Positions 5,783 through 44,104 of a DNA stretch of 44,104 bases are shown in pieces. This DNA is from Catajapyx aquilonaris (lineage: Eukaryota). The stretch spans positions 1 through 44,104 of the forward strand of contig KZ539370.1 of assembly GCA_000934665.2 (NCBI GenBank), given 5' to 3'. Position numbers and translations under genes: made by a program. Under the pieces are notes generated by a model. It had not been told where the DNA came from and did not search any database. It saw only the letters and a program-made list of their open reading frames with translations. The first letter of the stretch is position 1. Each line of letters starts with the position of its first letter.

Positions 5783-6928
5783 AGGGATGTAAAAAAAAGA
5801 CGGAAATTTGATTGCCGGAAACAAACCTGGTTTGGGGAAAAAAATTTGTTTCTCTCCAAACACATTTACTTTTTTGCACATTTTTTTGTGCTTTTAATGC
5901 ACACTATCAAGTTCTTATTACATATATACCACTGTTCATAAAAGTCAAATTATTAATATTAATACCAGAAATAAATTTAATAAAACGAACCCCCCGAAGG
6001 ACTCCAGGAACCAATCACTGCATCAACAATGTTTTTGTTGGGAATATTTTGTCAACGTCTGGGCCAAAATGAGTCCATATTGCACTGGATTTAGTAGAAT
6101 CTTTTGAGATAGGCTACTTTGATATTTTTCACTGGCTAAAAAACCAATAATATATTATGTAGGCATTCAGAATAATGTAGCCCTACGTGTTTTATGAAAA
6201 GCGCCTGCACTTGGTTGATGCTATGTCACATATCGAAAATATGTATTCAAATATCATATTTTTTGCTCCACCTTAGTATCATTGTTTTTACGCCAAATCA
6301 TATTGTGACTTTCATCACCAAATACCAGTTGGCGATTTCAACTGGTTTGCATGCTGATTGGTTTCCTTTCATCGACATGCTCAAAATTTAGTCGTCCAAA
6401 ACATTATATCCATCAGTCCAGTTTATTGGCATTTGCCAGATATTATTTTGCTTTAAACGAAAATGCTGAAAAAGACTGAAAAATGCGAGATAATTATTAC
6501 CACTGGCAAATAACCCTACAGATTCTTTGGTTATTGGTTGATATAATTACACGCAAAGAGCATATTAGAGGTATAAATACCCAAAAAATTTATGCGTGGA
6601 ATATTATTATAGTACGACTTGTAATAAATTGCATTATACATGAAAAATTGGTTTTGATGATCGAAGCCATTTTAAAACTAANNNNNNNNNNNNNNNNNNN
6701 NNNNNNNNNNNNNNNNNNNNNNNNNNNNNNNNNNNNNNNNNNNNNNNNNNNNNNNNNNNNNNNNNNNNNNNNNNNNNNNNNNNNNNNNNNNNNNNNNNNN
6801 NNNNNNNNNNNNNNNNNNNNNNNNNNGGGGGGGGGGGGGGACGAACAAATTTTGCTCGGAAAAAAATTGAAAAAAAAACATTTTCCTCAAAAAAATCCGG
6901 TCCCACCGTCCCGGCCGTTACAACCCTA
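5783..6928. mobile_element. Possible hAT-type non-autonomous element spanning the assembly gap
   Basis: Right end ...GTTACAACCCTA (reverse complement TAGGGTTGTAAC, hAT-like TIR) loosely matches AAGGGATGTAA at about 5783. No target-site duplication confirmed. Confidence 0.25.
6682..6826. other. Assembly gap (145 N)
   Basis: Run of N. Single-N joins also occur at 8372 and 19601. Confidence 1.
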
Positions 6929-18738: not shown

Positions 18739-18900
18739 TTATTAGATTAGTGGCTTACAATGAGCTGGCCATCGGTGAACCCATACCGAGAATAATATTC
18801 GATTATGTGTAATGTATACGTAATGCACAATTGGCGACTTTCCCTTAATTTGCATCGACACAACCGATGGCCAGCTCTTTATAAGCCACTAATCTAATAA
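18739..18900. mobile_element. MITE with 38-bp terminal inverted repeats
   Basis: TTATTAGATTAGTGGCTTACAATGAGCTGGCCATCGGT (18739-18776) versus ACCGATGGCCAGCTCTTTATAAGCCACTAATCTAATAA (18863-18900): 2 mismatches, about 86-nt spacer, TA near both ends. Confidence 0.7.
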
Positions 18901-20254
18901 GTTCACTACCATGCCTCTCGTGAGCAGGGTGGGAAAATTGCAACATTCTAGTGCGCCAGTGTGCATTATAATTGGTGACACTGATGTTCTCCCCATCAGC
19001 ATCGACAGAAAAATTGAAAGAGTGGCATCGGCTCTTAAAATCGTGGCGCCCAATGCGTTGAATTCGTAGCATCGAGAGTTTTTTCTTTATTTCTTCTCTC
19101 CTCTCCACATATGCGACAAGGATTACGTAAGAAGTTGCAGGACAATGGCACAGATCAGATGTCGCACATTTAGCGAGTGTCACATTTCCCACCACGTGGA
19201 CCCAACTCGCGCCTGCCGATAACAATCCTCGCAGCATCGGGGGCAGTGGCGTAGCTAGCATATGTGCGTGTGTGTGTGGCCATGCGTGTAGGAGGGTTGG
19301 GAGGAGGGGGTTCGGGCGAGGTGCGAGAGGAAGGTGACGAGATGGGCAAAGTGGAGCAGAGGACACGAGGGAACACTGAAAAGTGAGTATAATATTCCTC
19401 CCGGTGGGCCCCCCCTGGCCAATAAGTGGAGGCAGGCTAAAGAAGGAGGCCACACCAACCCTTGTCGGTGCGACCTGGCCGGCAGGGTCATCCATCCGTC
19501 CACATGCATAACATAACGGCCTATGAGGAGAAGGCGGAGGAAGAGGGTGGGGTGGGGAGGGGGAGACACACACATGCGAGGGGTGGGGGCCCCAGTGGAC
19601 NGACACACACATGCGAGGGGTGGGGGCCCCAGTGGACGGTCCAGCAAAGCTCCCATCGTGGAAGAAAAGATGATCCTCTCCCCCCCTCCTTTGCCACCCC
19701 CCCAAAAAAACTTCTTTTGCAAAAAGGGACGCTGCTCCGTCCAAGGCCGCCCACTCTAGTAGTCGTGGCTGCCACTTCAGGCCCAGTCTTCTCCCTTCTC
19801 CGTCCAAAACTTTCCCACCAGACTCCTCTCCCTTTCATCCGGACCCAGTCTACCTCCGATGCAGTTTTATTGCCACCATCCCTTCCTCTTTCCACCCAGC
19901 CACCCCTCTCCTCTCTCTCTCCCCACCCACCCTCCTCCTTCGGGGTGTATAGTGAGTGCAGCATCATCATCCAGCTGCCCCCCCTCTCTTCCCTTGCTTC
20001 TTACTACCAGCGAGGGGGTCTCTCCCAGCGGGACCCAGCTCCTTAGATGATGATGATGATGATGATGGAGGCTCTCTCTCTCTCCCCAGCTACCTTTTAC
20101 TTTCTGCAGTACCTGCCTCCTTTTCCTTTCCCTTTCGTCTGCAACCGGCAAGAAACCCTTTCCTTTTTCACCCCGGCCACCCTTCACCTTCACTTTTCCT
20201 TCCCTTCCGTTTTCCCTTTCCGTATACCCGCCCACGCCTTCCATTCATCCCATT

Positions 20255-20569
20255 CATTCATTCATTCGGACCCATTTCACTCTCACTCTCATTCCTTCAA
20301 CCCTTTTGCTGCACCCTCTCCGTCCCTTTAACTCCGACCACACTGTGTCCACCACCTTCGATCGCGCAAATTGATTCGGATCAAAATCTGCAACGAGCAA
20401 TTAGGCCAATTATTTCTCCTCCGGATCTTGGTGCGCATTGTTTTGCTCTTTTGTTAAGCCGGGGGGCTAGCTACTACTGTATAAATGAGAAGAAAAAGGC
20501 CGGTGGCGAATAATTGGCTGCAAAAGCGCATCATCACCGTCGTCAACATTACATCGTATAGCAACACCG
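20255..20569 (+). other. Candidate non-coding first exon of the Cache-domain gene
   Basis: Inr-like TCATTC repeats at about 20254-20267 after a pyrimidine-rich tract; donor CCG|GTGAGC at 20570. The ATG-containing exon has an acceptor (TTGTGCAG| at 24666), so an upstream UTR exon is expected. Confidence 0.35.
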
Positions 20570-23500
20570 GTGAGCAAAGCCCGGAGCTTCTTCCCAGGAA
20601 AAAGTAAGGGGCAAGCAAGGCGGGCAGGGGCTTGTCTCCACGGTCATTATGCATAATAATCAATCGTCCCTTTTTCCCCGGCCCCGCTGGAACTGACGCA
20701 GCTGACCAACGGTCAAATCCCCTGCCTGCCTGCCTGCCTGCTTGGCCTGCCTGCCTTTTCCTTTCCTATCCCTTTTTCCTTATCCTTCCTGGGCTCTCTC
20801 GCTCGCCAGTTGGCAAACCTCCTGTCCACTCACGCGCCGACCACAACCCACCCACCCCACCCACCCAAAACCTCAATTCTCGACTTGACCGCTGCCCATC
20901 CTCAGGCGTTGCTCACAACGACGGACCGAATGCCCTCTAGTCCGCCTCGACCACACTTCGTCGACCCCCCAAAAAAGAGATGACCATCATCGTGTCCTCT
21001 GGCCACTCTATATAAAAAGACGCACGATCTTCTATAACTTCAAAACATGCCAATCTCTATTACATCACAAGTCAATGTGGATCCGACTATTCCTTCCAAA
21101 CTTTCTCATCAAATTGGTTGCTGGAGTGAACAATCCGACCTTCGCTCCGCTAATACCCTGTATGACGGCTGTATATGATTATGCAAATATTGCTCGCATA
21201 TATATTGCATATAATGTTACGATGTATCCCCTGGAGCACAGTACATAGCTACTGATCTGGGTTAAAAATGGCTTCCCAAGAGCTAATACAATCAGAACCT
21301 GTTCGATTTTTAAATTCGCAATAATAAACCCACACTGGTTTGCCACAAGCACATCACGCGGTGCATGCGTCTTTCTATATGGCATGAACGCATACTTAAA
21401 ATTCTGTCTCACTGCTCGTTACTCTCTCCGTCACTTTTGAAGCTAATTCAAATAAGCACCGGCTGGCATCAGCAGCATTGTTGTGGAAATAACCTCAGGC
21501 CTGTCTGTGAGAGAGAGGGGCTGCTGAGGGGTCCCAAATATTCAGGCCTCTCTCAGCACTGCTGTGCGGCACATGCATGTAACTGTATGAATATAAGCCG
21601 AGGGCGCCTTGCCAATTACATTTTACTTGCAGATTTTGCAAAGCACATTTTGCACGCTGCACGGTTTCCGTATGGGCGGACGAGGTCAACCCGTCTGGGC
21701 AAAGTCTGACAGAATAAGCAGCACCACCGGTGCCGGCATCAGACACGTTATTCCTCAGCTCGTCTGGTAGGGAGCAGCACCCGTCGCATCTGGATTCGCG
21801 ATATGCAAATTGAGGCTCCTTCGGGATGTATAATCTCATTGCAATACGTCTTCTTTCCTATAAAATATTTGCCACCGAAGCAACAAACCTCGACAATTTC
21901 TTCGTCGAGTGACGCATCTTTTAATGTTTTCAGCTTTTAGTGCATAATAATTATTAGCTGTCGTTATGTATACGACAGACTGCAATGCACGAATGCAGCA
22001 GAATCCGCATCAGCTTCTCCCGAAAATAGCCCGGAATGTCTTTATCTCCGGACCACCAAACCGGCCCTCGCATCTGGCCGGAAAGCGCCTTATTCGCATT
22101 CCAAATATAAAAGTCAGTTCGGTTTACACAATAGTGTAAAGCGCAGGTGCTGATGTTAAATTAGCTATTTTCAAAGTCAGTGACACTACGACTAGAACAT
22201 GAAAAACTCAGCTACGTAACTGATTATACAAGTACGATGAAAAGAAGTATGTTTCCAATAGGTGTTGTGCAAGTAGTTGAAGGGCCCAATAGAGAAAAGG
22301 CGCCAGTGCAAAAGAATGTTTAAAGTTAATCATATTAGTAATTGACACCCCACAATAGACAAAAGCCTAAAAGATCTAACCCCATCGACAAATCGGCAAT
22401 GGCGACAATTCGTCCTTGGTTCCATTGACAGAACTGACCTGGGAGGTACGTCGTACAGTAGCCCACAGTACAGTACATGCGACAGTTGCGTGCTCACTTT
22501 CGAACTAGGTAAAAGTTTACTGTCGGAAATGATTTGCCAACACATGACGTATTGTGCAATATTCATGCAAAACCACGTGTGCAACGTGTAGAGTCGGATG
22601 ATGTCATTCCCTTCTAAGAAATGCTAGTTAGAACAACAGCAAAAAGTACATACAGGTATAGTCACAATAAGACCACTTCGCAGAACTTGCGGATCGTCCC
22701 GAGGGAGTACAATGGACAGAACTTCGCATTGTCTCATTAATTATCCCTCATGGCATGCAGCACCAGGTGGAGAATTCCTGAAGGTCGATGAGTTATACCA
22801 GCCGAGCTTTGTCACCACGGGATAAGCTTATGTCTCAGGAGAATTGCGTCGAGGGAGGGAAGGGTGCGGGAGGCTGGGCCCGGTTGGGTGTGGGTGGGGC
22901 TCACAAACGCTTAGCTGCAAAAATGACTCACAAATTCTTATTCGCACTAATACTGTTGTGCACAGGGACTATTCAAGAGGACATCTGCTGGTGCTGCCAT
23001 GAATTGTGTCGCAATTAATCTTTTAATGTTGCACTCGAGATATTAAAGCCGCTTTGTTACAAGCCTGGATTTCAACTCCATATAAAAGTTACGCGCAGAG
23101 AATAAAGGAAGCTCGACCATAATTCGTAATCCACTTTGATAGCGTAGGATCTTTAATGTGCAAAACTGGTATGGTATGGGGAGGGGAAACTGGCCGCGTG
23201 AGACACAAGAAAATGAAATAATTCGTGCGGCAATATTGCCCAGCCGAGTACAAAACAAGCCGATTGTAAACCTTGAGTAGCATAGTACCGTGCTTCTTGC
23301 GGAATGGTGATGTGTCATGTGGGAATGGAGTTGCGAAAGCACTTGCACCAGTCAGTCCTATTCCCATTTCAACGGATAAATGATCGAAATGTATATGTGT
23401 CGTAATGTGTTGCATATTATTTTTTCAGACACAAATGCAGCGTATGATACGTTGCGTGGAAAGGAGGGTGGTTGATGTCACGGGAGGCGGGAAGAAGAAG

Positions 23501-24693
23501 CCATGCAGATTTACCTTCCAAGGGTCAAATCGAGACGGAATTAAAGCGGCAAAAAAAAGCACACGCGATTATGAATTTTTCATACAATAGCTATAAATAT
23601 ACCCACTCCAACATGCAATCGACCTACATCAATATTATAGTTACAAGTCTAATAATATAAGCTCCACGTTAAGATACTCGCAGGGCGACTAGGCAATTCC
23701 ACAGCATGTCACCGTACATATTCCAATTTCTACAAAAAAAAATTAGCATACCGATTATTTCACATCCGATCTGTCCTGGATATTACCTGTCGGTCCATTG
23801 CCATTTGAAAAGAAGCGACGACACAGTTCACGTGCAATCCAGATGGCGTTACGATCCAGAGCGCGGCAGATGGCCCCGCATTTTGCAAATTATTGACGCC
23901 TTCATCCTGCACAAAATACCGGGTGAAATTTTCGTCTCACTGATAGTCACTGCTAACTTATCAGTACCATTGCCAACACTGGTAGTGACCTACTGCTAAT
24001 AAGCTACCAGTGATTATCAGTGGATGAAAATTCCACCCAACACTTTCCTAAGGGATTGAAATTACGCACACAAACGTATTGCGCCAATCTGGGTTTTATC
24101 AAGAGCAACTCATTGCAGCCAGAACATTCCATCAGCTGGCCCGGAACACATTCAAACATTGCGCGCCAACCCTTCTACGTTCTTCGCGCCTGCGCCCGTC
24201 GACTCATCAACACCGTCATTATTAGCTATATATTAAGTAACTGTGTCGGGAACAGCAACAGCTGCTTCAGAATTCAGCAAGTAATACTTTCATTTCTAGC
24301 TGCTACTCCGACTTAAAACAGCTACGAGCTACTTGCAAATGCAGCAGCTGCGTTATTTCAGGGCGGGTCCAAGCGGGAGAGGCCATATTGAAAAAAAAGG
24401 CGAGGGAGGGCGGGGTCCGCGAGAAGCGAAAAAGGCTGCGAAAGAGGACCGCTGATATCCACGGTAGGTTGACCTCCAGCTCAGATGAACGAGCAGAGGT
24501 ATGGAGCGACCAAGGGCAACATTCGAAACCCCGGAAGGTCGAAAACCATGTTCCAAGCAACCGTATTTCAGCAGGTGGAATACGGTATCTGGCCAGTTGC
24601 ACTTGTTGTACTGTATTTTTCCAATGGTAGATTTTGGCTAATTGCTGTGTACTACATGTTGTGCAGGTGTCCTGAGGCAGCTGACTCCCAAGC

Positions 24694-27568
24694 ATGGCGG
24701 CTCGTCCCTTGAGCTGCTGTGTGGTCCCCTTCCTGCTCCTGGTCGCCTGGGCCACCTTCTGCTGGGCCCAGTTCTCCTGGCAGAACAGGGATGCGTACGA
24801 CGAGATCAAGTACCGCATGGACCAGGTGACGCCGGACAACTGCCCCATCCAGCACCTGGAATCCCTCTACCTCCCTGCCGACACCGTCTCGCACAAGCCT
24901 GACATCAAGGAGGTCAACATCAACCCCGTGTTTCCCAACCGCACCGCCCTGCTGCACCTCCACAACATGGCCCTCAGCCGAGCCTTCTTCTGGAGCTACG
25001 TGCTGCAGTCACGCTTCATTAGACCCGCCATCAACGACACTTACGACCCAGGGATGCTGTACTACTTCCTGTCCACGGTCGCCGATGTGTCTGCTAATCC
25101 ACGTGTCAATGCCAGCGCAGTGTACTTCTCTCCAAATTCCTCCTACTCACCGTCATTCAGAGGGTTTTTCAACAAGACCTTCCCGCTGTTTGCGCCACGC
25201 ACATTCAGAGCGGATGACTTCAACGACCCCATTCACTTGGAGCGGATATCAACCCTGAACACGTTCGTGGTCCGTGACTTGGGAGTGGTGCCGCATGACA
25301 GCCAATCCCAGAACTACACCTCCGAATGGTACAGGACCAACGAATGGTATCGAGCGTGGCTGCCAGACAATCCTGTGGGCCGGCATGACACCAAGACCAC
25401 GTATCAAGTCCAGATCCGGTATGCCAACAACACCAACGAGACCTTCACATTCCATGGTCCACCAGGGGCAGACGAAGAGCCAGGGCCGGTCAAGTGGCTG
25501 AGGCCTTATTACGACTGTTCGAGAAGTAACAAGTGGCTCCTAAGTGTTGCTGTTCCAGTGGCTGACATCTACCCAAGGCACACGCAGTTCAGGCACATTG
25601 AATATCCGAGGTATGTAAGCCGTAATTTTCCAGTTCTTGTCTTGGTGACCATGCAGTAATTGCGTGTTGTTATTTTCAGGTATACTGCAGCATCGGTCTT
25701 TGAGATGGATTTTGAGCGAATAGATATCAACCAGTGTCCACGTGGGCAAGGGAACGATGGGGAAAACAGGTTTTCAGACACGGCGCGATGTCGGAAAGAG
25801 ACTACAGAGTGCGAGCCCTTGAATGGGTACGGGTTTCGCAGAGGTGCATACCAGTGTCGGTGCCGCCCAGGTTTCCGCCTGCCAAACTTTGTTCGGCGGC
25901 CCTACTTGGGCGAGTTAATAGAGCGTGCCACGGAGCAGCAATATCAATCCAACTTCTACTGCGAGAAGGTCGGCTGGGTGCAAAAGCTGCCCGTACAGTG
26001 GGAGAAGCTGCCTGAGAAACTCAGGGCCATGTACCTGGACCGGAACGAGGCTTACAAGAACTTCACTTGGGAGCCGGGACTCACCATGAGTCCAAATGAC
26101 ACGTCGAAGAAGCGCCAGAACATTCACACCATGCTCATGTTCATCGGCAGCGTCAAGGGTGACAACTGCCACCTGTAAGTTGGCTACTGACTGTTGTTAT
26201 TGGGTTAATGCATTTCGTCTTTTCCTACTTCCGTCCAGGTTCAACCCGCGTGACTTGATTCTCGAGGGTGACATGGGCTTTGGCTCCGAGTTCCAGTTTG
26301 AGAGTGAGGCTCTAATGGCTGTCAGGCTCGCCAACTTCATCTCCGCATTCATGCAGGTACTTCAGGCGATATACACTTTCTGAATCATTTCTAGCCATTC
26401 TCAACCTTGCTTCCAGATTGTGGATCCAACCGAGATATTCCCTGGGAAACGCCTTGCAGACAAGCCGCTGTCAGAGGATCAGATGATGGCAGAGACGCTG
26501 TCAATAGTGATGGGCAGCCAGAGGATCTGGGCAGCTGGAACATTCTGGGAGAGGGGCAAGTTCACCAACCGCACCCTGTTTGCCCCGTACGCTTATAAAA
26601 CAGCCCTGAACACCAGGAAGTTCAAAATGGAGGACCTTGCTAGGCTCAACTCCTCGGGTGAGCTCAAAGTCTCTAGATGGCACCGTGATACCCTCTACAT
26701 ATATTATATCCTGAGACATGCAACATCTTTGCAGATGAGCTGTACCTGAACAAGCCATGGTACCAGCTGCTGAAGACTCGCTGGTCGACCAATTATGACG
26801 ACCTGGAGAAATTCTACTTGAAGATGCACATTCGAAACAATGAGACGGGGAACTACCCTCGCAAGTACGAGCAGTACCCCACCTCATACAAGGCAGCCAA
26901 CCTGGGTCACGGCCAGTGGACTTCTCCCTACTTTGACTGCAAAGGGAGGGTGCCCATGTGGGTGGTCACCTACGCCTCTCCTTTCTTTGGGTGGGATTCG
27001 TTACGCAACAGGCTGGAGTTCAAAGGAGTTGTCACCATCACGGTGGATCTAATGAAACTGGACCTCAACCAGTGCCCGGACAAGTACTATGTTCAGAACG
27101 CATTCAAGGACTCTCACAAATGCGACAGGCACACCTCATACGTGAGTTCAGCTGCAGCCTTCTCGACCGACTGACCCTACAATACAATCTGTCGTTTCAG
27201 TGTGTGCCAATCCAAGGCAGGGAATTCGACACGGGGGGATATAAATGCGAGTGTCTGCAAGGGTACGAGTACCCTTTCGAAGACGCCACGACCTACTACG
27301 ATGGCCAGGTGGTAGAAGCTGAGTTTCTCAATGTCGCCATGAACAACAAGAGCAGGTGAGCAGTAACATCCAATTAAATATGAAGGATTTAACCCTAATT
27401 ATGCCATAATGTGCATGTAAACCCAATTAGGTACAGTAATTTTTAAACATTGTTTTGTTGCCCCCCCACAGATTCGACACCTTCAAATGTCGCCTAGCTG
27501 GAGCAGCCAATATTGGAGCCAACTTTGTGCTTCTGTCGGTTCTCGTATTTCTGGCCAAATTCGTCTGA
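24694..27568 (+). CDS. Predicted GPI-anchored surface protein with two tandem GPR158/GPR179-like Cache + EGF-like modules (809 aa), no 7TM
   Basis: Exons 24694-25610, 25680-26174, 26239-26356, 26417-26657, 26735-27141, 27201-27355, 27472-27568; all GT-AG, phases consistent, 2430 nt. Hydrophobic signal peptide (VVPFLLLVAWATFCWA). Repeated Cache motifs (NEWY...WLRPYYDC...FEMDF and KPWY...WTSPYFDC...FKGVVTITVDL), each followed by a GPR158-type EGF (DINQC...FSDTARC...GFRRGAYQCRCRPGF and DLNQC...FKDSHKC...GGYKCECLQGYEYP). The C-terminus AGAANIGANFVLLSVLVFLAKFV is GPI-signal-like. AATAAA at 27857-27862. Confidence 0.9.
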
Positions 27569-28014
27569 ATCTCAATTTTTAGCATTCCACACGATCATGA
27601 GAATCTCAAGAAATCCGTCCGGCTCTGCATTTACAAAATGGAAATCTTTTTAAACACATAACAACAGTTTTTTAAAACATTACGGCATGAATCTCGAGTG
27701 AATGAGCGTGCAATAGTGTTGTGCAAGATGAGCGAATGACGATTGTTACCGTCCATAGATTTATTAACATTGTTTGCTCAGCAGTGAATGGGCAGCTTTT
27801 TAACGTCTTTTTATGTAAAGACTGGTTTTGAATGTACAAGCGGATTTACAATCAGCAATAAAATAGGTATTTTTCACTTTAATTCTCTTTGCACCTGTTC
27901 TGTTCATAAACTGTTCCGTTATGCCGCTTGCCAACTATTGGATATGCACATACATTTCTGGCTGTTAAGTGTCCCAGTCAATGTTTACTGGAAATGGAAC
28001 ACCGGGGGCCTTAC

Positions 28015-28658: not shown

Positions 28659-30683
28659 TTAGGAGTTGGTGTTGGGTCCCCTCCTTCGTCCGAACTGTTG
28701 TACGATGTTGACAAAGCGCCGGTTGTACTGCTGCCGCCTCTTTGCCCTGCCGGTCTTCTGCTTCTTCTTCTCCTGCTTCTCTACCTTCGGGGTCTGGCCA
28801 CGGACTTTTCCAGCACGGGCCAACGATCCGTGAACCTTGCCTGAGAGAATATAAGGGGAGGGAAAACGGTATTGTTGAAAAGATTCAAGTCTTAGATGGG
28901 TTTTGAAATATTAATGCCGCACTTAAATATGGGAATCATTTGGCAAACAAAAAACAGGAAACACATTGGGCATTTTTATAGGGACAGTGCAGCAGTTGAT
29001 TAACTAATGATTGTCCCCACCGCCTAGACCGCCAGCAAGCATTGCAATCGCAAGCTGAGGTAACCTGCAGTGGAAAGTAGTTGCCATAACTATTGTTCTG
29101 CCTGGTCTAAAATCGGAAGTAGGAGACGACCGAGTGACCGGTCTGCCACCATCCAAACCAGGGGGATACGCTCTTCAGAAACTGTCATTACCTCCTTTCA
29201 GTCCAATGTTGAGGTCAACAATGTTGCCAACAATGGAGGACACACAGTCATCATCCTCGAGGGGAACTCCAGCCGAGTACAGCAGGACCTGGGTGACATC
29301 AATGGACTCCAGGGAAGCCACATGGTCCTAAAAAAATACGGAAATTGTATTAGTTCGGTATACTATTACGATATTTTCACTGTCGTACTTTAACGTACAG
29401 ATTTCAAAAAAATTAGAAATGACTGCATGCAACCTGCACTTGTTCTGTCTACTTCAGAACAAAGCTCACATCCGCATCATTTAAAATGATCCCTCCCAGG
29501 ATTGATTTTGCCCCGAGTGTCAATAACTTTTACAGGAAGTTTAACGGTATAGGCAGGCCACTGCCATTGACGCCATCATTTGCTTACGAGTTCCTACCCA
29601 ACAAAAATCTACCGAATGCACCACTGGAACCTCCCACTTTTCAAGTTTTCCATGGAGATGCCCTCATGCAACAATTGGAGTGAACAATGTCAGCAATGGG
29701 AGTAAACAATGTCAGCAAAAAAGAACACTGTTTGCTCCAATTGTTGCACGGGGACATCTCCATGGTAACAGGAAAAAAGTGGGAGGTTCCAGTGGTGCAT
29801 ATGGCAGATTTCTGTTGACTAGGATTTGGTAAACAAAATGACGACGTAAGAGCGGGCCGCCTATACTAGTCTGTAAACAAAACGATGACGACAATGGCAA
29901 GTTAGATGCAAAACAGGCACTAACTGCAAGTTTTCCAGTATCGGTTAGTTGCAAGAATTGAAATTGATGACATCGTCATTTTTCCATGCTTGAAACGGCC
30001 ACAAGTGTTGGGAAACTTCAATGATTCATATTTTAATTTTTGCGAAAACTACAACTGATGCCCAATCTTTGGGAGCTGCACAATGCTCATTAAACCTTGG
30101 CCTTAATAAAGTTAGCACGTACCCATTCATTATTCACCGATGGAATACCCCAGTCGAAGTTGTGCCACATTGTGCAATACGCATTGATTTCATTAAATAT
30201 TACTTTCAGCCACCTCCATGCATTTCAGAAAATAAGCTCATTGTTGACCAGTTCCCTAAAAACCGCAATTAAAATTCTGGTAGGTTCGTATCACTTTCTG
30301 GCATGACCAAATAACGGCGACGTTTCTGCTCATGATGGATCCATTACCGACAGGTTTTGCTGCAACATCAATATTGCATACTGCATTGATCCTCAGCGGG
30401 TTCAAGCAGCTGGTCAATAAATGATCTGATGAATCAGGGTGCGGCTGACTGACACGACCATGTGACCTCTGCCATTGCACGTCCACCCCCTTTTCTAATG
30501 TTTCAGCCCCGACCTTCCTTCATGTGACCTACCTACCCTTCCATTTACCCTAAAGAACCAGTTCAACTCTTCCAACTGTTGTGTTGTACTAGAGATGAAA
30601 AGTACCTTGATCAGTGCGACCTTCTCCTCTCCGGTGAGCTGCAGCACGTGCGTCTGCTGTCCCCTAACCTCCAACTGCATCAT
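28659..30683 (-). CDS. FAU: Ubiquitin-like FUBI-40S ribosomal protein S30 (eS30) fusion, 131 aa
   Basis: Exons 30683-30606 ([26 protein letters not shown]), 29327-29192 ([26 protein letters not shown]...IGLKG), 28840-28659 ([45 protein letters not shown]...GPNTNS). GG|KVHG cleavage site intact; AATAAA on minus at 28589-28584. Confidence 0.97.
29009..29162 (-). ncRNA. Candidate box H/ACA snoRNA in the last FAU intron
   Basis: Sense to the host gene. 5' hairpin (CTGGTTTGGA/TTTAGACCAG base, GACCG/CGGTC apex); H box AGAACA (29099-29094); small TAGTT/AACTA insertion hairpin; 3' hairpin (TTCCACTGC/GCGGTGGGG) immediately followed by ACA (29014-29012). About 154 nt. Confidence 0.65.
29545..29880. 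mobile_element. Foldback/palindromic MITE in FAU intron 2
   Basis: About 140-nt imperfect inverted arms, e.g. ATGCACCACTGGAACCTCCCACTTTT...CCATGGAGATG...GCAACAATTGGAG versus its reverse complement at about 29735-29800. The loop carries a short tandem duplication, GAGT(G/A)AACAATGTCAGCAA. Confidence 0.75.
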
Positions 30684-32149: not shown

Positions 32150-33978
32150 ATGTCCGAGGAGAAGGGGAAGGTGTGGTGGAGGGTGGCCCTGCTGTACCTG
32201 ATCCACGTGGCCCTGTCCCTCTACTTCTGGCTGGAGACCCAGGTCGCGTCGGGCATCCTCTCGCCGCGGATACTGGTCAGCAAGCTCCGCTCCACGTTCC
32301 TCCCGGCCCAGAACCAGAGGAAGCACGAGGCCGGCCTCATCCAGCAGGCCGTCACCCACCTGCCCAAGAGGCCGCACCACTTCAGCGTGGTCCTGGTCAG
32401 CGAGGAGCCTGACTTCAGCAAGGCAGCCCGCCTGATCTGCTGGGCCGTCGAGGCTGGCTCCAAGGCGGTCTCCCTGTACGACCACGACGGGAAGTTCAAG
32501 CTCAGGCAGGAGGAGTTCAAGGCCGTCTTGGTCAAGGAGGCTGCCCTCTTCTTCCAGGAGCAGAGCCTCAAGCCCACCTTCACACTGCACAACACGCTCA
32601 AGAAGAACGGGTTCGTTCCTAATGGTACGTATGCAGCTGGGTGTCGGTACCAGTTGGGGGGTTCAAGTTGACATTGGGGGGAAATGGCATTAGCAGACAA
32701 AATCAAGCCGCATTTACATGCGAGTGATTGTTACGTTCGCTTAACATCGCTGCAACATCTCCGATAAATCCCTCGCATGTAAATGCAGCTTTACTTAGAA
32801 CATGCGCAACAACAACCGCAACAATAAATAAATACATAAAATATTAATAAATATAGCGATTAGAGTCGATGACAATCATTTCAAGCACTGCCCAATGTTA
32901 AAATATATGCTTTGCGCTGGGCTGTTTTCACTTTAAAAATTGTAGCCTGCGATGTTGATTATTCAGCGAGTACTGGCCTTGCACGTGGTGCATAACGTGA
33001 AAGTTTGTTGTCGCAGAATTGACTTGGGGAGCAACAGATTTCATAGGTTGACTTGAATTATTATCATTAACACTTGTACGTCCAAAATTAATTCCAACGA
33101 CATATAACGATGAGTTTTGTATGGCACAAAATATTCTGGCCGTGCCCAAGGTTCAACTCTCTGTTTCCCCACTGAGGGAAGAAAAGACAGATAGTCATAG
33201 TTCAGGAAATTGTGTAAAAGTTGCTGCATGCAAGCGTGGATTTATTATATCACCAGAGTTATTAAGTCCATCATGTTGGCCCACTTTTTCCTGCATAGCA
33301 CAAATGTATTCAGCTGAGAGTCAACTTTCCCTTTTTTCCAACCCCCCTTTTTCTTAGGAGGTGGAAAGGGGAATGAAATCCACGTGGTCCTAACTTCCTA
33401 CGAGGATGGCCGACCTGACTTGGTTCGAGTGGCCAGAGACGAATGCGCAGCCGTTTTGCACGAGAGGAAATCTCCCAAGGAGGTGAAGGAAGACAGCGTT
33501 TCGGAGCAGTTGGCGCCAACTAAAGGACTTCCAGATCCGGATCTGATCCTCAGATGCGGATTCATCCGATCCATGGCTGGATTCCTGCCTTGGCAAATAC
33601 GCCTCAGTGAATTCTAGTAAGTTGTGGTTTTTGACCTAGGTCATGCTTTCACAAATGTCGATTCCATTGGGATTATTATTTAGAAATTGTGCCCCTGAGA
33701 AAGCATTTCGGTCTAGTGTGACTGACTGGCATTTCGATGAGTAATTTTTTCCTGTAGCTTTACACACACTTGTAGCGTAATTATTCTTATGTAAGCTGAC
33801 AGTACTTTTATCACCGAGTAATTCAGTCAATTTGCTGCTGGTTGCCTTGGCAAGATTTTATAGCCGTACATTTCTGTCTTATTACAGTGACATAAGATCT
33901 CACCATGGAGTTCAGGTGGAGCACTTCATAGATTCGCTCTATTTCTACGGGAAAGTGGAGCAGAGGTTCGGCAAGTGA
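32150..33978 (+). CDS. NUS1: Dehydrodolichyl diphosphate synthase complex subunit NUS1 / Nogo-B receptor (274 aa)
   Basis: Exons 32150-32624, 33358-33616, 33888-33978 (825 nt). N-terminal hydrophobic segment, then LPKRPHHFSVV...ICWAVEAGSKAVSLYDHDG, SYEDGRPDLV, LPDPDLILRCG...GFLPWQIRLSEF and the C-terminal RxG motif EQRFGK. AATAAA at 34082. Confidence 0.95.
32706..32790. mobile_element. 85-bp PIF/Harbinger-like MITE in NUS1 intron 1
   Basis: 19-bp TIRs AGCCGCATTTACATGCGAG / CTCGCATGTAAATGCAGCT (1 mismatch), flanked by TCA and TTA (near-match 3-bp TNA target duplication). Confidence 0.7.
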
Positions 33979-37138: not shown

Positions 37139-40100
37139 TCACTCTCGAGACGTCCTCCGCCTATTATTGTGTCTCCCCTTTTGTCTTGGAGAAGAGTCGG
37201 TTGACCTCGACGTCGACCTCCGTGACGAATCTGAACTGCTTGAAGTTGAGGAGGAGGATGAAGATGAGCTGGACGTGGAAGAGTGACGCCTGCTCCTCTT
37301 TGAATCCCTGGAGTCCCTCCCCTCCCGTCTCCCCCCAGTCGACTTCTGCCCCTGCGCCCTCCCCTGCTCTCGACCCCGGTTCTCCCTTCCTTTCCTCCTA
37401 GCAGGACTCCTGCTCCTGCTCCGTTCCCTTCTACGCTCCCTGTAGTCCCTACTGTGCCGGCTAGAGTGACTGTGGCGGGACTTTTCTCTCGATTTACTCT
37501 CCCTCTTTGTGCTGTAGCTATGCCTTGACTTTCTTCCCGTCCCAGCATCTTCCTCCCTCTCCCTCACGCTCCGCTCCCTCTCCCTCGTCCCCCTCTCCCC
37601 ACCACCAGCCTTCCGGCCCATCCTGGATGATGCCGTCGAAAGTGATGAGGGCGACACGGAGCCGGCGCTGACACCTGTAGGTTAGGGTTTGGGAATTGGC
37701 CGGGCCAAAGGGTGTGCAGGGAACGGGGAAAACCACAGAAAGTTAGTCCCTAGCCATGCGTATTGCAGACATTAAGATTAGCCTTTTTAAACTTTTTTGC
37801 AATAGTTCCAAAGGAAGTGGTGCAAAAAAAAAAAAAGGCGCACTAGCCTTCCTTGCAAGTGCAAAACCAGGAAGTCGCATGGAATTATGTTTGCGACTGT
37901 ATTACGCGTAGATGATGAGAAGCAAATGAGGCCAGCTCCTTCTTTTCAACAATAATTGAACGTGACTTGTCTACTCTTTAAATGCACTGATTCCAAGGAC
38001 GTGTAGAAATCATGCCATTGCCATCATATCGAGGCCGCAAAAATGAAAAAAAAACTAGCGTAACACCTCGACTATCATGGAGTAGGTCACATCAGAAAAA
38101 GTCACCTCAGAATGAAATTGTACCAGAGGCGGCTTTCAAACCCACCAATCCTTCCACCCAACTTTAAACAAGCGAAAACATAATTGCCAGCGAGGGTGTC
38201 TCATAAATTCTTCTGATGAACTTCTGGGCACCAACGGACAGGTATCCTTGGTCTCGGCAGATTAGTCACTGAGAAAATTGGCTGCTTATCATGTCACACA
38301 TCCCAGAAGGTTTGCATCCAACCATCTGCAAAGTCCTCCCTGCCAACGCTTGGGTGGAAACCTTACAAGATATGGCGCACTACTATTACGACAATAAATG
38401 AATGCACTGGAAAATCTGGAGGAAGGATCAGCGATGTGAAATACCACCAACATTAAGATGCTGTTTTTAAACCCATGCGGATATCCTCGGAATCAGTATC
38501 TCATTCAACTGTAAAGAGTATGAAGTAGTTTGGATGGCCGCTTCTTCTCGCAAACATACTTCAACCTGTTTGCGGCCAAAAATTGAGCGAATCTGCCTCG
38601 ATTTCATGTCATGCGACCCTGCGGGATGTGCCGAGGTATAGTGAAGGAGATAGTTGCAGGTTTTGCACTTACAATGAAGAGATGCTTTGGATCCAATGCA
38701 TCTACTCTGCGGATGGGGCTGTTTGAATAGCACAATAATGTAATAAATGCAGTGACTTGACATTTTTCTTTTTTGGCTCTCTCTCTGAAGGATTCGTTTG
38801 AAGGGGGGTTGGGAATGTTGGGGGGCGGTTTGTACTCACCGATGGAGTTGCCTCGAGACGCTTTAGATTCACTCTCTACCTGCCTGCCTTCTTCCTCCTT
38901 CTCCTTTTCCTCCTCCTCCACCTCCTTTGTCACCACCCCCTTTGCCCCAACTTCCTCTCCTCCTCCCCTGCCTTCTTCCCGCTTCGTCACCACCTCCCTT
39001 CCTCTCACCGCTTCCTGGTCCTCCTCGTCGTCGTCAGCCTCCTCATCGTCTCTGTCCGTGGCCCCCCCTCCTGCCCCGTCCTGGCCCCCATTCCCCTCCC
39101 TCCCCTTCTCCCTCCTCTCCTTCTCCTCTTCCTCTGTCTTTATCTTCTCCTCAATGTCTTTGGCAGTCTTTGTAAACTCCAGCCTCTTCCTCTCAATCAG
39201 TGCCTGGAAAAGGAGTCGACATGAAGAGACTTGCACAGCAAACAAGTGTCATCGCCCTCTGAATGAAACGCCTTACCTGCAGCTCTTCATCTGAATCGAC
39301 TCCAGACTGGTCCCCTCCGTGAACCCTACCCCCCTGGCCGCCTTTCCCCCTCCCTACCCCAGACTTGCGCCGCTTGCTGTGCCTCACCACTTCTTCATCT
39401 TCGCTGTCGTCTTCGTCGCTGCTTACTCGCTCCTTCCTCCTTCTCCCGTCCGACTGCTCTCCTCCAGTGCTGTCCGAGTCCGAGTCGTACACTCCCAGGC
39501 CTATGGTTGCAGGGGAGAAACAAGAAGCGTTCCAAGGGTGGCCACACACCAGGGAGTTTTTCCGCCCCCTGCCCTTCCTCCCTGCCCACCAAAGAACAAG
39601 ATGAGGGAGAGACTTACCAAGGCTGCCCGAGAGAGAGGCCAGGGCCTGGCTCTTCCTCAGGTGAACTGCAGGCGCTTCAGATACAAAAAGAAACGGAAAC
39701 GGAGAGAAACGAAAATGCAATACTCTTTGCACACGCTTATATTCTTTTGAGAGTGTGTGTGTGAGACTGTGTGTCTGTCTGTTTGTCCATGCCGTCCAGC
39801 TCCAGGAGTGGGGGGCAAGCAAAGACTTGGGGAGAGTCGTGCAAATACAGAGCATGTGTGTACGTGTGTAAGTAACCAGGTTCCTTCCTCCTCTTCTTCC
39901 AAACCGCGACCTGAAAGGGTCTCTCAAACAACAGCAGACAAAAAAGAGAGGATTCCCCCAAAATGGTGGCCCTACCTTTGGCCCTCATCTGTTGGACCGT
40001 CTCCCTGGCAACGGCCTGCATCTCCTCCGTCGTCACCTCCAGCAGGATCTGGGTCAGGACACGTCGAACTTTCAGCATCTGCAAAAGCAAGGAGTCGTCG

Positions 40101-43623: not shown

Positions 43624-44104
43624 CAAAGACCGTATATGTTAAGACACGCAACTGTCCCTTGAAACGTGAAAGTGGTTTGTCAGTGCCATCTAGTGAGTGC
43701 GGAGTTGACCCCCACTCCACCAGCGTTGGGCCACCAGGTTGGGCGGCCTGGTCTGGCCTGCTGCTTCCCTACCCCGTCTCTGCCCTTGGTCCTTGCTTGG
43801 TCTCTGCTTTTTTTTCACAAATGGAGCGAAAGGCAGGACTCTGAAGAAGCTAGTCTTAGAAGCTTGTGAGAAAATACGTGCCACTGGTTTCATTCCTAAA
43901 TTGATTGTATGTGACCAAGGACCACATAACCAGGTTTTGAAACGGCTGCTAGGGGTTAAAAATGACCAGCCTTTTTTCACACTGCCCACAGATCCTTCTG
44001 AAGAATTTTTTTTTTTCATGTATGATATACCCCACCTGATGAAGTGTGTAAGAAACATGCTGATGAAATATAACATTAGATTTGGATCTGGCTCTGTAGC
44101 CAAG
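43624..44104 (+). mobile_element. P-element/THAP9-family transposon, internally deleted, running off the window end
   Basis: Open frame from about 43808 to the end: FFFTNGAKGRTLKKLVLEACEKIRATGFIPKLIVCDQGPHNQ...QPFF...FMYDIPHLMKCVRNML, containing the CDQGxxN catalytic Asp and the DxPHLxKxxRN motif of P transposases. A putative 5' TIR CAAAGACCGTATA at 43624 fits CAWRG-type P termini (less certain). Confidence 0.8.

What the first reader, a model, noticed from the sequence alone, without database searches (positions are those of the whole stretch)
24694..27568. Receptor ectodomain without a receptor: GPI-anchored double Cache-EGF protein of the GPR158/179 type
Seen: signal peptide, two full tandem modules (Cache-like WY / WxxPYxDC / GV-D motifs followed by a DxNQC...C EGF), and a short hydrophobic tail ending the protein with no cytoplasmic part. 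Established: in GPR158 (a metabotropic glycine receptor) and GPR179, one such ectodomain sits on a class C 7TM, dimerises, and binds ligand and extracellular partners. Inference: this protein could be a single-chain pseudo-dimer of that ectodomain, acting as a lipid-anchored or shed small-molecule sensor, co-receptor or decoy for arthropod GPR158-like GPCRs. I know of no functional description of this architecture.
Basis: partly seen in the sequence, partly recalled or inferred. Interest (0 to 1): 0.75.

Follow-up and report, generated by a model that had tools for sequence, protein, structure and literature searches.

The report
Lipid-anchored double GPR158-type sensor ectodomain
This is a real, expressed gene for a secreted protein made of two tandem copies of the ligand-sensing outer part of the GPR158/GPR179 brain receptors, with a lipid-anchor-type tail instead of a membrane receptor body; it is conserved across protostome animals and I found no study of its function.

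Summary
Window 24694-27568 (+) holds a seven-coding-exon gene with GT-AG introns that encodes 809 aa. One spliced 2767-nt contig from a public run matches it with no mismatches and ends in the 3' UTR. The protein has a signal peptide and two homologous ~380-aa modules (hhalign E 2.4e-34). Each module scores above the Pfam GPR158_179_EC cut-off and has a Cache fold plus a three-disulfide EGF-like part. The tail is a conserved small-residue site followed by a short hydrophobic end, as in GPI signals. There is no 7TM: the protein has no internal hydrophobic segments, and no 7tm match was found downstream. The AlphaFold2 model is confident (pLDDT 85, pTM 0.87). A control-backed complex test (0.82 against 0.00) packs module 1 against module 2 through the same helices that GPR158/179 use to dimerise. 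This supports a single-chain pseudo-dimer. The family is found across protostomes, not only arthropods, and the duplication predates the split of ecdysozoans and spiralians. Databases name it only by its domain. Ten literature searches found no functional study. Its function as a ligand-binding co-receptor is inference. Verdict: a real new variant of a known kind, of moderate to high interest.

The parts
24400..24462 (+). Non-coding 5' exon. Only its last 63 nt are seen in the contig, so its true start is unknown.
   Evidence: a joint from 24462 to 24666 with GT..AG ends, and 63 nt on the short side.
24666..25610 (+). Exon holding 28 nt of 5' UTR and coding exon 1 (ATG at 24694). It encodes the signal peptide and most of the module 1 Cache domain.
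   Evidence: orthologues at 70-79 % identity.
24694..24768 (+). Signal peptide, aa 1-25: one Arg, a hydrophobic core, and probable cleavage after C-W-A before Gln26.
   Evidence: hydrophobic segment aa 1-25. The cleavage site is read from the sequence; no SignalP was available.
24769..25977 (+). Module 1 (aa 26-405, intron 1 included): N-terminal helices, Cache domain with invariant P-Y-x-D-C, EGF-like part with D-I-N-Q-C, and 8 conserved Cys.
   Evidence: (3lic Z 14.1 over model residues 35-292).
25680..26174 (+). Coding exon 2: the end of the module 1 Cache domain, the module 1 EGF-like part, and the inter-module linker.
   Evidence: (PF22572, 63.9 bits).
25978..27493 (+). Module 2 (aa 406-785, introns 2-6 included): the linker end, N-terminal helices, Cache domain, EGF-like part, and 8 conserved Cys.
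   Evidence: GPR158 E 2e-19; 3li9 Z 15.5; 8irj Z 12.8.
26239..26356 (+). Coding exon 3.
26417..26657 (+). Coding exon 4.
26735..27141 (+). Coding exon 5: the module 2 Cache core and the start of its EGF-like part.
   Evidence: (PF22572, 67.0 bits; PF22673, 30.2 bits).
27201..27355 (+). Coding exon 6: the module 2 EGF-like part.
27472..27568 (+). Coding exon 7, including the stop codon at 27566-27568.
27494..27565 (+). GPI-signal-like C-terminus, aa 786-809: the small-residue stretch L-A-G-A-A-N directly after the last conserved Cys784-Arg785, a short spacer, and a 14-residue hydrophobic end.
   Evidence: the motif is present in 106 of 120 listed orthologue clusters and in molluscs, annelids, a brachiopod, a nemertean and flatworms.
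27569..27814 (+). 3' UTR as far as the contig reaches. An AATAAA lies at 27857-27862.

Best explanation
SHOWN. The region is an expressed seven-coding-exon gene for an 809-aa secretory glycoprotein. The protein is two tandem, homologous copies of the GPR158/GPR179-type ectodomain: N-terminal helices, a Cache domain and a three-disulfide EGF-like part. It has no 7TM and no cytoplasmic part.

PREDICTED. The two modules fold back on each other through their two long Cache helices, as the two protomers of a GPR158/179 dimer do. One chain therefore mimics the receptor's ectodomain dimer. The chain ends a few residues after the last EGF cysteine in a conserved signal of GPI type. That would tether the module 2 stalk to the outer leaflet at the point where the receptors continue into TM1.

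INFERRED. The protein works as a lipid-anchored ligand-binding co-receptor or auxiliary subunit. Module 1 keeps the invariant acidic Cache-pocket positions and is the likely ligand-binding half. Module 2 has variable pocket positions and mainly supplies the dimer partner and the membrane tether. Because the protein has no cytoplasmic part, any signal must pass through a separate transmembrane partner that is still unknown. This is the logic of alpha2delta with CaV channels. The ligand is unknown and is probably not bound in the mGlyR glycine mode.
For: Gene model and expression: GT-AG introns and an open 809-aa frame. One spliced 2767-nt contig matches with 0 mismatches, joins all introns and ends in the 3' UTR.

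Domains: PF22572 scores 63.9 and 67.0 bits against a cut-off of 28.1. The orthologue profile hits GPR158 (7ewl, 7she, 7ewp; E about 2e-19) and GPR179 (8d1b, 8irj; E 6e-15).

Duplication: hhalign E 2.4e-34. All 16 module Cys are conserved in 27-31 of 31 protostome rows.

Fold: AlphaFold2 pLDDT 85.4 and pTM 0.87. Foldseek gives 8irj_A E 1.6e-12 and 8d1b_A E 5.6e-10. VIA-align gives 3li9 Z 15.5 (rmsd 2.0, 134 aligned, module 2), 3lic Z 14.1 (rmsd 3.1, 152 aligned, module 1) and 8irj_A Z 12.8 (rmsd 5.3, 263 aligned).

Pseudo-dimer: the complex test of module 1 against module 2 scores 0.82, best of 3 controls 0.00. That mark was reached by 51 of 78 solved complexes and 2 of 108 mismatched pairs. 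The runs agree in at least 74 % of contacts and the partner pLDDT is at least 78. The lowest-error contacts pair helix 80-93 with helix 451-470 and helix 40-67 with helix 489-502. This is the crosswise helix packing described for GPR158 (PMC8611064 passages) and GPR179 (PMC11437087 passages).

No 7TM: the protein has no internal hydrophobic segment. None of the 132 ORFs of 60 aa or more downstream has a 7tm match. The next gene, 1.1 kb downstream, is RpS30 on the opposite strand. 79 of 120 listed orthologue clusters end in a hydrophobic segment and none shows a 7TM-like series.

GPI-type tail: the motif C-[RK]-x followed by small residues occurs in 106 of 120 clusters. After it come a median of 23 residues, with an uncharged run of median 14.5 and a median of 4 trailing residues.

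Module asymmetry: P-Y-x-D-C is 100 % conserved in module 1 and in the 7TM relatives, whereas in module 2 the Y is 61 % and the D 55 %. The strand position aligned with GPR158 D307 is acidic in 87 % of module 1 rows but is D in only 55 % of module 2 rows. Module 1 is also the more conserved half: 75 % against 63 % identity to 8 arthropods.
Against: No dedicated GPI predictor was available and no experiment exists. A very short-tailed type I membrane anchor is not excluded; some orthologues end in 1-3 basic residues.

By the hydropathy criterion, 23 of 120 listed clusters show no C-terminal hydrophobic segment, and 18 have it more than 5 residues from the end. Many of these look like partial models, but I did not check each one.

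The complex test may pass from memory of the solved GPR158/179 dimers, and it ran without my alignments. I had no model coordinates, so I could not superpose the geometry on 7EWL or 8IRJ.

No ligand is known. At mGlyR S172 (named in PMC11437087), module 1 has an invariant Asn of an N-x-S sequon and module 2 is variable, while all 7 protostome 7TM relatives examined have Phe. Pocket positions were mapped by sequence alignment only.

Vertebrate GPR158 and GPR179 also bind protein or proteoglycan partners through this ectodomain. A purely protein-binding role is therefore as compatible with the data as ligand sensing.
Confidence: 0.6

Rival explanations
1. It is a cell-surface adhesion or matrix-organising protein. 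The double Cache-EGF body binds extracellular proteins or proteoglycans, as GPR179 binds pikachurin and GPR158 binds glypican-type HSPGs. It would position or cluster partners in cis or trans, with no small-molecule sensing.
For: The closest solved relatives use this ectodomain for protein partners. The 8d1b entry is GPR179 with pikachurin, and PMC11437087 passages describe the beta-loop contacts. The GPR158-HSPG interaction is cited in the reference list of PMC6778782. Conservation is very high over the whole surface: 75 % in module 1 and 63 % in module 2 to other arthropods. That fits multiple protein interfaces. Module 1 carries long invariant stretches outside the pocket motifs.
Against: The invariant P-Y-x-D-C and acidic strand positions of module 1 are typical of ligand-binding Cache pockets. 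The best structural matches are small-molecule-binding bacterial sensor domains. The two roles are not mutually exclusive.
Confidence: 0.3
2. It is a decoy or dominant-negative partner of the 7TM GPR158-like receptors (the Smog/CG31760-type receptors of protostomes). It would act either by soaking up their ligand or by pairing with a receptor protomer through the Cache dimer face.
For: Module 2 resembles the receptor ectodomains. For 9 of the 10 7TM-type relatives I examined, the best-scoring stretch lies in module 2. Such receptors are found in the same animal groups.
Against: The Cache dimer face of both modules is predicted to be occupied inside the chain (pTM 0.87). That leaves no free face for a receptor protomer. 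Pocket positions differ from those of the receptors at several columns, so a shared ligand is not indicated. The family has been kept as a distinct, slowly evolving lineage since before the ecdysozoan-spiralian split. That fits a function of its own.
Confidence: 0.1
3. The C-terminal hydrophobic stretch is a true transmembrane anchor (type I, with a tail of 0-12 residues) and not a GPI signal. The rest of the best explanation would be unchanged.
For: Some orthologues have uncharged runs of up to 25 residues, and up to 12 residues follow the run. Several end in basic residues, as stop-transfer sequences do.
Against: In the window protein the hydrophobic end has only 14 residues, and the median uncharged run in orthologues is 14.5. 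That is short for a membrane span. The invariant Cys-Arg followed by small residues (A/G/S), a polar spacer and a hydrophobic end is the classical layout of a GPI signal. It is kept from arthropods to molluscs, annelids and flatworms, while the tail sequence itself is free to vary.
Confidence: 0.15
4. It is an artefact: a truncated or mis-assembled class C receptor gene whose 7TM exons lie elsewhere, or a pseudogene.
For: None found. The window ends 16.5 kb downstream, and exons shorter than 60 codons were not scanned.
Against: The spliced contig ends in a 3' UTR after the stop. The frame is intact. The closest relative, from another assembly, has the same end (P0001). 216 hits of about 800 aa share the same architecture. 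An opposite-strand ribosomal protein gene follows directly.
Confidence: 0.02

Closest known systems
GPR158 (mGlyR) and GPR179, vertebrate class C orphan/glycine receptors
   Same: They share the ectodomain family (PF22572). The layout is the same: N-terminal helices, Cache domain, EGF-like cysteine-rich part with the D-I-(N/D)-Q-C motif. The dimer contact through the two long Cache helices is also the same, here predicted within one chain.
   Different: This protein has no 7TM and no cytoplasmic RGS7-binding tail. It has two modules in one chain. It lacks the four-cysteine 'D loop' of the stalk, which in GPR158 touches ECL2 (PMC8611064 passage; the receptor consensus has 10 stalk Cys, against 6 per module here). 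It has a GPI-type end. mGlyR S172 is not kept.
Protostome 7TM relatives (annotated 'metabotropic glycine receptor-like', 'probable GPCR CG31760', 'GPR158'; Smog-type receptors)
   Same: They are found in the same animal groups. Their ectodomain is the nearest relative of module 2, and they have the same P-Y-x-D-C and D-I-D-Q-C motifs.
   Different: They have a single module followed by a 7TM with 5-6 hydropathy segments. In the tree they form a clade separate from both modules (SH-aLRT 98).
[quoted passage not shown]
   Same: This is a functional analogy only. They are extracellular, GPI-anchored or membrane-tethered proteins built on Cache domains. They bind amino acids and gabapentinoids and act as auxiliary subunits of a separate membrane protein (titles and abstracts listed).
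   Different: They have a different architecture (VWA plus two dCache_1 domains, and proteolytic alpha2/delta processing). No VWA or dCache_1 match was found here. The Foldseek matches to alpha2delta are weak (probability 0.07-0.12). This protein is not a member.
Bacterial and archaeal extracellular Cache/dCache sensor domains (histidine kinases 3li9, 3li8 and 3lic; chemoreceptors PctA, PctD, Tlp3, TlpQ)
   Same: They give the best fold matches: Z 14-15.5 at rmsd 2-3 A over 134-152 residues. PF22673 matches in module 2. The W-x-x-P-Y-x-D and G-V-V motifs are classical Cache motifs.
   Different: The protein is eukaryotic, fused to an EGF-like part, and has no transmembrane signalling module. 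The amino-acid-binding motif of dCache_1 sensors could not be mapped without coordinates.

Membership tests
GPR158/179-type ectodomain (Pfam PF22572 GPR158_179_EC) | Pfam model match above the gathering score | tested here: met
   63.9 bits (exon 2, module 1) and 67.0 bits (exon 5, module 2) against a cut-off of 28.1. The precomputed PF22572 is present on the listed orthologues.
GPR158/179-type ectodomain (Pfam PF22572 GPR158_179_EC) | Cache (PAS-like alpha/beta) fold preceded by N-terminal helices | tested here: met
   Model pLDDT 85.4. Foldseek hits to 8irj, 8d1b, 7ewl and 7ewp. VIA Z 15.5 for module 2 and 14.1 for module 1 against Cache sensors, and Z 12.8 and 11.2 against GPR179 and GPR158.
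GPR158/179-type ectodomain (Pfam PF22572 GPR158_179_EC) | EGF-like cysteine-rich part with D-x-(D/N)-Q-C and three disulfides | tested here: met
   D-I-N-Q-C is present in both modules. The six Cys after the Cache domain are conserved in 27-31 of 31 rows. The disulfide pairing itself was not checked, because no coordinates were available.
GPR158/179-type ectodomain (Pfam PF22572 GPR158_179_EC) | Four-cysteine 'D loop' of the stalk that couples to the 7TM | tested here: not met
   The receptor consensus has 10 stalk Cys. Each module here has 6. In module 2 the chain passes from the sixth Cys straight into the GPI-type signal.
Class C GPCRs of the GPR158/GPR179 (mGlyR) type | Seven-transmembrane domain (7tm_3) | tested here: not met
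   There is no internal hydrophobic segment. No 7tm match was found in 132 downstream ORFs or 105 upstream ORFs. The transcript contig ends after the stop.
Class C GPCRs of the GPR158/GPR179 (mGlyR) type | Glycine-pocket residues of mGlyR (S172 from PMC11437087; R173, E271 and D307 recalled only) | tested here: not met
   At S172, module 1 has Asn and module 2 is variable. At R173 the residues are Gly/Ala or Ser/Gly. The E271 position is Asp in 100 % of module 1 rows and 55 % of module 2 rows. The D307 position is acidic in 87 % of module 1 rows and is D in 55 % of module 2 rows (T in the window). Mapping was by sequence alignment only.
GPI-anchored proteins | Cleavable N-terminal signal peptide | tested here: met
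   Hydrophobic aa 1-25 with a C-W-A/Q site. N-x-S/T sequons N82, N139 and N160 are kept in 31 of 31 rows. No SignalP was run.
GPI-anchored proteins | C-terminal signal: small omega residues, polar spacer, hydrophobic end, no cytoplasmic domain | tested here: met
   The window protein has C-R-L-A-G-A-A-N, a spacer and a 14-residue hydrophobic end. The motif occurs in 106 of 120 orthologue clusters, with a median of 23 residues after it. This used a rule-based reading; NetGPI and PredGPI were not available.
GPI-anchored proteins | Actual lipid attachment (PI-PLC release, omega-site peptide) | not testable with these tools
   This needs an experiment.
alpha2delta / CACHD1 | VWA domain plus dCache_1 domains | tested here: not met
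   No VWA or dCache_1 family appears among the Pfam matches at E up to 0.1. Foldseek probability to alpha2delta chains is 0.07-0.12.

The most novel reading that the evidence does not exclude
An ancient, protostome-wide, GPI-anchored single-chain mimic of the mGlyR/GPR179 ectodomain dimer serves as a detachable ligand-sensing subunit. Module 1 binds a small amine- or amino-acid-type ligand. The pseudo-dimer passes the resulting change to an unrelated transmembrane partner such as a channel, receptor kinase or GPCR. Class C-type Cache sensing would then be used without a 7TM. That would be a new receptor logic, comparable to GFRalpha/RET or alpha2delta/CaV.
Probability: 0.25. Interest if true: 0.8.

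Novelty: new variant of a known kind. Interest (0 to 1): 0.6.

Why it matters
GPR158 (mGlyR) and GPR179 are currently studied as depression and night-blindness targets. Their Cache-EGF ectodomain is thought of as part of a class C receptor.

This gene shows that the same ectodomain has existed since before the ecdysozoan-spiralian split as a stand-alone cell-surface protein. It is tandemly duplicated and probably lipid-anchored. It is under strong constraint: 62-80 % identity in module 1 across arthropods, and about 40 % across protostome phyla.

Four things follow.
- It is a natural single-chain version of the ectodomain dimer, and could be useful for structural and ligand work.
- It is a candidate orphan co-receptor in model organisms. 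Drosophila has a single 807-aa orthologue.
- It is a test case for how Cache sensing can be coupled to signalling without a 7TM.
- The module asymmetry (conserved pocket positions in module 1, variable ones in module 2) parallels the division of labour in class C heterodimers.

Tried and rejected
- My recalled guesses for the Drosophila gene were wrong. CG32432 is described as a GPI-anchored orthologue of C. elegans sol-1, a different protein. CG15556 appears in papers on adhesion GPCRs (listing). I could not determine the D. melanogaster symbol. The cluster listing gives only D. simulans GD20036, D. ananassae GF18316, D. willistoni GK22700 and others, all named 'uncharacterized'.
None turned up a study of this architecture.
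  - PF22572 / IPR054714 / PTHR32546 gave 0 papers.
  - 'Cache domain' + GPI + Drosophila gave only alpha2delta papers.
  - CG31760 + GPR158 gave 0 papers.
  - 'GPR158-like' and variants gave 4 papers (3 listed), by their titles on vertebrate GPR158/179 and GPR56; I did not open them.
- Laboute et al. 2023 (the mGlyR pocket paper) is not held. R173, E271 and D307 are therefore recalled, not read.
No whole genome is held for the window, so I could not count paralogues or 7TM relatives in this genome.
- The look-up of sequencing runs listed no holder on record as RNA. The one run listed (X1, kind not on record) proved to hold spliced contigs.
- No model coordinates reach the script box. I therefore could not superpose the model on 7EWL or 8IRJ, measure the pocket, or check disulfide pairing.
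- The module tree is unrooted. It cannot say whether module 1 or module 2 is the older copy, or whether the 7TM was lost or gained.
- The upstream 24.7 kb gave no Pfam match in 105 ORFs of 72 aa or more.
Full report
WHAT IS THERE

Stop-to-stop ORFs on the + strand between 24.6 and 27.6 kb carry a run of coding pieces. Reading the sequence gives seven coding exons: 24694-25610, 25680-26174, 26239-26356, 26417-26657, 26735-27141, 27201-27355 and 27472-27568. A script confirmed several points.
- All six introns are GT..AG.
- The joined CDS is 2430 nt and gives 809 residues with one terminal stop.
- The only hydrophobic segments (15-residue Kyte-Doolittle window) are at aa 1-25 and aa 789-809.
- There are 14 N-x-S/T sequons and 19 Cys.

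EXPRESSION AND GENE ENDS

One public run holds the stretch (its kind is not on record). When laid on the window, its contigs are spliced.
- A single 2767-nt contig with no differing letters joins all six coding introns at the predicted borders.
- It adds a 5'-UTR intron (24463-24665).
- It ends at 27814, which is 246 nt after the stop. An AATAAA lies at 27857-27862.

Downstream, 132 ORFs of 60 aa or more on both strands gave no 7tm match. The next gene is ribosomal protein S30 on the opposite strand at 28662-28910. It is followed by a prenyltransferase exon and a PNISR-like gene. The refutation test 'further exons encoding a 7TM' therefore fails on present evidence.

DOMAINS AND INTERNAL DUPLICATION

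- Pfam PF22572 (GPR158/179 extracellular domain) scores 63.9 bits on exon 2 and 67.0 bits on exon 5 (cut-off 28.1). PF22673 (first PDC sensor domain of chemoreceptors) scores 30.2 bits on exon 5. EGF models give sub-threshold hits on exons 2 and 6.
- A profile-profile comparison of aa 26-405 with aa 406-785, built from 24 full-length relatives, gives probability 99.9 %, E 2.4e-34, 302 columns and 23 % identity.
- Each module has eight Cys at matching places: 50/469, 275/659, 325/704, 343/720, 350/727, 365/742, 367/744 and 400/784. All are kept in 27-31 of 31 protostome rows.
- Three module 1 sequons (N82, N139, N160) are kept in 31 of 31 rows. This fits a secretory glycoprotein.

RELATIVES

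- Exon 1 alone finds 216 longer proteins, of which 120 are listed. They are nearly all about 800 aa and 68-79 % identical. They come from insects, springtails, a brine shrimp and others, and are named 'uncharacterized' or 'GPR158/179 extracellular domain-containing protein'.
- The closest is P0001 (94 %), a transcript-sized contig with the same C-terminus.
- Drosophila species have one 807-810-aa orthologue each in the cluster examined.
- An exhaustive phmmer search with cluster look-ups, and a second search from an octopus member (121 hits, 120 listed, every one that carries an organism name a protostome), extend the two-module family. It now includes a tardigrade, a nematomorph, molluscs (with paralogues), annelids, a brachiopod, a nemertean, flatworms, rotifers, an orthonectid and a horseshoe crab.
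- No deuterostome or cnidarian member was seen among named hits. This is not an exhaustive test.
- The ESM Atlas holds a 1026-member cluster with the same automatic name.

THE TAIL

- Of the 120 listed orthologue clusters, 79 end in a hydrophobic segment by the hydropathy criterion. In 18 the segment lies a little further from the end, and 23 have none. Several of the 23 are visibly truncated models, but I did not check them all.
- The motif Cys-[Arg/Lys]-x followed by three small residues lies in the last 60 residues of 106 of the 120. After it come a median of 23 residues: a spacer of about 4, an uncharged run of median 14.5, and a median of 4 trailing residues.
- The same layout is found in octopus, scallop, limpet, sea hare, Owenia, Capitella, Lingula, Tubulanus, Schistosoma and Macrostomum. 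The hydrophobic letters themselves vary freely.
- This is the textbook form of a GPI attachment signal (established knowledge). The anchor itself is not shown.
- The 7TM relatives show 5-6 hydropathy segments after a single module.

FOLD

- The model has mean pLDDT 85.4 and pTM 0.87. Low confidence is limited to residues 33-36 and 397-407, the inter-module loop.
- Foldseek against the PDB puts GPR179 (8irj_A E 1.6e-12; 8d1b_A E 5.6e-10) and GPR158 (7ewl, 7ewp; about 3e-6) on top, together with the bacterial sensor 3lic.
- VIA-align gives Z 15.5 (3li9, rmsd 2.0, 134 aligned, model 447-658) for module 2 and Z 14.1 (3lic, rmsd 3.1, 152 aligned, model 35-292) for module 1.
- It also gives Z 12.8 for GPR179 (8irj_A, rmsd 5.3, 263 aligned, model 402-753) and Z 11.2 for GPR158 (7ewl_A, rmsd 4.2, 213 aligned).
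- The sequence profile hits GPR158 at E about 2e-19 and GPR179 at E 6e-15.

The refutation test 'no Cache fold' therefore also fails.

PSEUDO-DIMER

A pTM of 0.87 for a two-module chain already implies a defined mutual position. This is an inference on my part. I then sent module 1 (residues 1-399) and module 2 (401-746) as separate chains to the complex test.
- The score was 0.82 (three runs: 0.81-0.84), and the best of 3 controls was 0.00. That mark was reached by 51 of 78 solved complexes and 2 of 108 mismatched pairs.
- The runs agree in at least 74 % of contacts, and the partner pLDDT is at least 78.
- The tool warns that a pass can come from memory where a like complex is solved. That applies here (GPR158/179 homodimers), and my alignments were not used.
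- The lowest-error contacts pair residues 85-92 with 459-467, and 54-58 with 494-501. In other words, helix 80-93 of module 1 lies on helix 451-470 of module 2, and helix 40-67 lies on helix 489-502. Strand contacts (194-205 with 536-542; 148-154 with 574-583) are arranged crosswise.
- Passages of Jeong et al. 2021 (PMC8611064) describe the GPR158 ectodomain dimer as side-by-side packing of alpha4 with alpha5' and alpha5 with alpha4'.
- Passages of Yun et al. 2024 (PMC11437087) describe the GPR179 interface as alphaI/alphaII helices plus two extra strands that reach the other protomer.

The predicted intramolecular contact is of that kind. I could not superpose coordinates.

STALK AND TETHER

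- The 7TM relatives have ten Cys after the Cache domain (consensus), and GPR179 has five disulfides there. In GPR158 the lower 'D loop', with two disulfides, touches ECL2 of the 7TM.
- Each module here has six Cys after the Cache domain, so only the three-disulfide EGF-like part is present.
- In module 2 the sixth Cys is followed directly by the small-residue site. In the receptors the homologous F-x-C is followed by the D-loop cysteines.
- The lipid anchor, if real, thus replaces the receptor's stalk end and TM1 at the same point.

POCKET POSITIONS (SEQUENCE ALIGNMENT ONLY)

The 7she chain numbering equals the published numbering; D314 and D316 fall on V-D-I-D-Q-C, as. I mapped positions onto a module alignment of 31 species plus 7 receptors.
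- P-Y-x-D-C: Y and D are 100 % conserved in module 1 and in the receptors. In module 2, Y is 61 % and D is 55 %.
- The strand position aligned with GPR158 D307: D/E in 87 % of module 1 rows, D in 55 % of module 2 rows (T in the window), and D in 100 % of receptors.
- The position aligned with mGlyR S172 (named as a pocket residue): an invariant Asn of an N-x-S sequon in module 1, variable in module 2, and Phe in all 7 protostome receptors examined.

That E271, D307 and R173 line the glycine pocket is my recollection of Laboute et al. 2023, which is not held.

Reading: module 1 keeps the acidic positions typical of amine-binding Cache pockets, module 2 does not, and a glycine mode like that of mGlyR is not indicated. 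Module 1 is also the more conserved half: 75 % against 63 % mean identity to 8 arthropods, and 43 % against 40 % to 22 other protostomes. The linker is only 37 % and 19 % identical.

HISTORY

I built a maximum-likelihood tree of 70 rows: 31 module 1, 31 module 2 and 8 receptor ectodomains. Four badly cut rows were left out: both tardigrade modules, and the Hetaerina and Neocloeon receptors.
- The tree gives three clean groups, with SH-aLRT 100, 95 and 98.
- Within each module group, arthropods separate from the spiralian phyla, and the mollusc paralogue pairs appear in parallel.
- The tandem duplication therefore predates the ecdysozoan-spiralian split, and molluscs later duplicated the whole two-module gene.
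- The tree is unrooted. It cannot tell whether a 7TM was lost or gained, or which module is older.
- For 9 of the 10 7TM-type relatives examined, the best-scoring stretch lies in module 2. For P0280 it lies in the EGF region of module 1.

MECHANISM

Shown: the architecture, the expression, and the absence of a 7TM.

Predicted: the pseudo-dimer and the GPI anchor.

Inferred: a lipid-anchored protein with no cytoplasmic part can signal only through another membrane protein, or act as a ligand, organiser or sink.
- Given the conserved pocket positions of module 1, and fold matches that are mostly small-molecule sensors, I favour a ligand-binding co-receptor or auxiliary subunit. Module 1 would be the sensing half, and module 2 the structural partner and tether.
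- The main rival is a protein- or proteoglycan-binding organiser, as known for GPR179-pikachurin and GPR158-HSPG.
- A decoy that pairs with receptor protomers through the dimer face is disfavoured, because that face is predicted to be used internally.

NOVELTY

Databases already recognise the domain and name the family by it, so the existence of such proteins is catalogued automatically. I found no paper describing the architecture or a function in ten full-text searches. I could not learn the D. melanogaster gene symbol, so a study filed under a CG number, or in a journal that is not held, may exist.

I rate it a new variant of a known kind: the GPR158/179 ectodomain in a tandem, receptor-less, probably GPI-anchored form. 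Interest is 0.6.

Noticed in passing
window 28662-28910 (-), intron 28840-29190: Ribosomal protein S30 (FAU-type) gene on the opposite strand, 1.1 kb downstream of the stop. It matches Pfam Ribosomal_S30 at E 3.3e-30. A minus-strand GT..AG joint is seen in a high-depth contig.
   Followed up: partly
window 33318-33614 (+): An ORF piece matches Pfam Prenyltransf (undecaprenyl/dehydrodolichyl diphosphate synthase type) at E 1.9e-6. It is probably one exon of a cis-prenyltransferase gene.
   Followed up: no
window 39740-40885 (-): Two adjacent ORFs match the arginine/serine-rich protein PNISR family (E 3.3e-10 and 6.3e-16). This is probably a PNISR-like gene on the minus strand.
   Followed up: no
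window 43709-44104 (+), runs off the window end: An ORF matches the TNP-like RNase H N-terminal domain (E 4.6e-6). It is a transposase-derived sequence at the window edge.
   Followed up: no
window 6682-6826; also single N at 8372 and 19601: An assembly gap of 145 N and two single N.
   Followed up: no
window 18848-19834 (-) and 19000-21000: A long open frame of 329 aa with no Pfam match lies in a G+C-rich stretch (0.53-0.57) with strong negative GC skew (-0.33 at 20-21 kb). It is unexplained.
   Followed up: no
related proteins P0138/P0384, P0339/P0380, P0332/P0307: Molluscs carry at least two paralogues of the whole two-module gene. Both modules show the same paralogue split, so the complete gene was duplicated.
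   Followed up: partly
alignment A2: The protostome 7TM relatives of GPR158, some annotated 'metabotropic glycine receptor(-like)', have an invariant Phe where mGlyR has pocket residue S172. The 'glycine receptor' name given to them by automatic annotation may therefore not reflect their ligand.
   Followed up: partly
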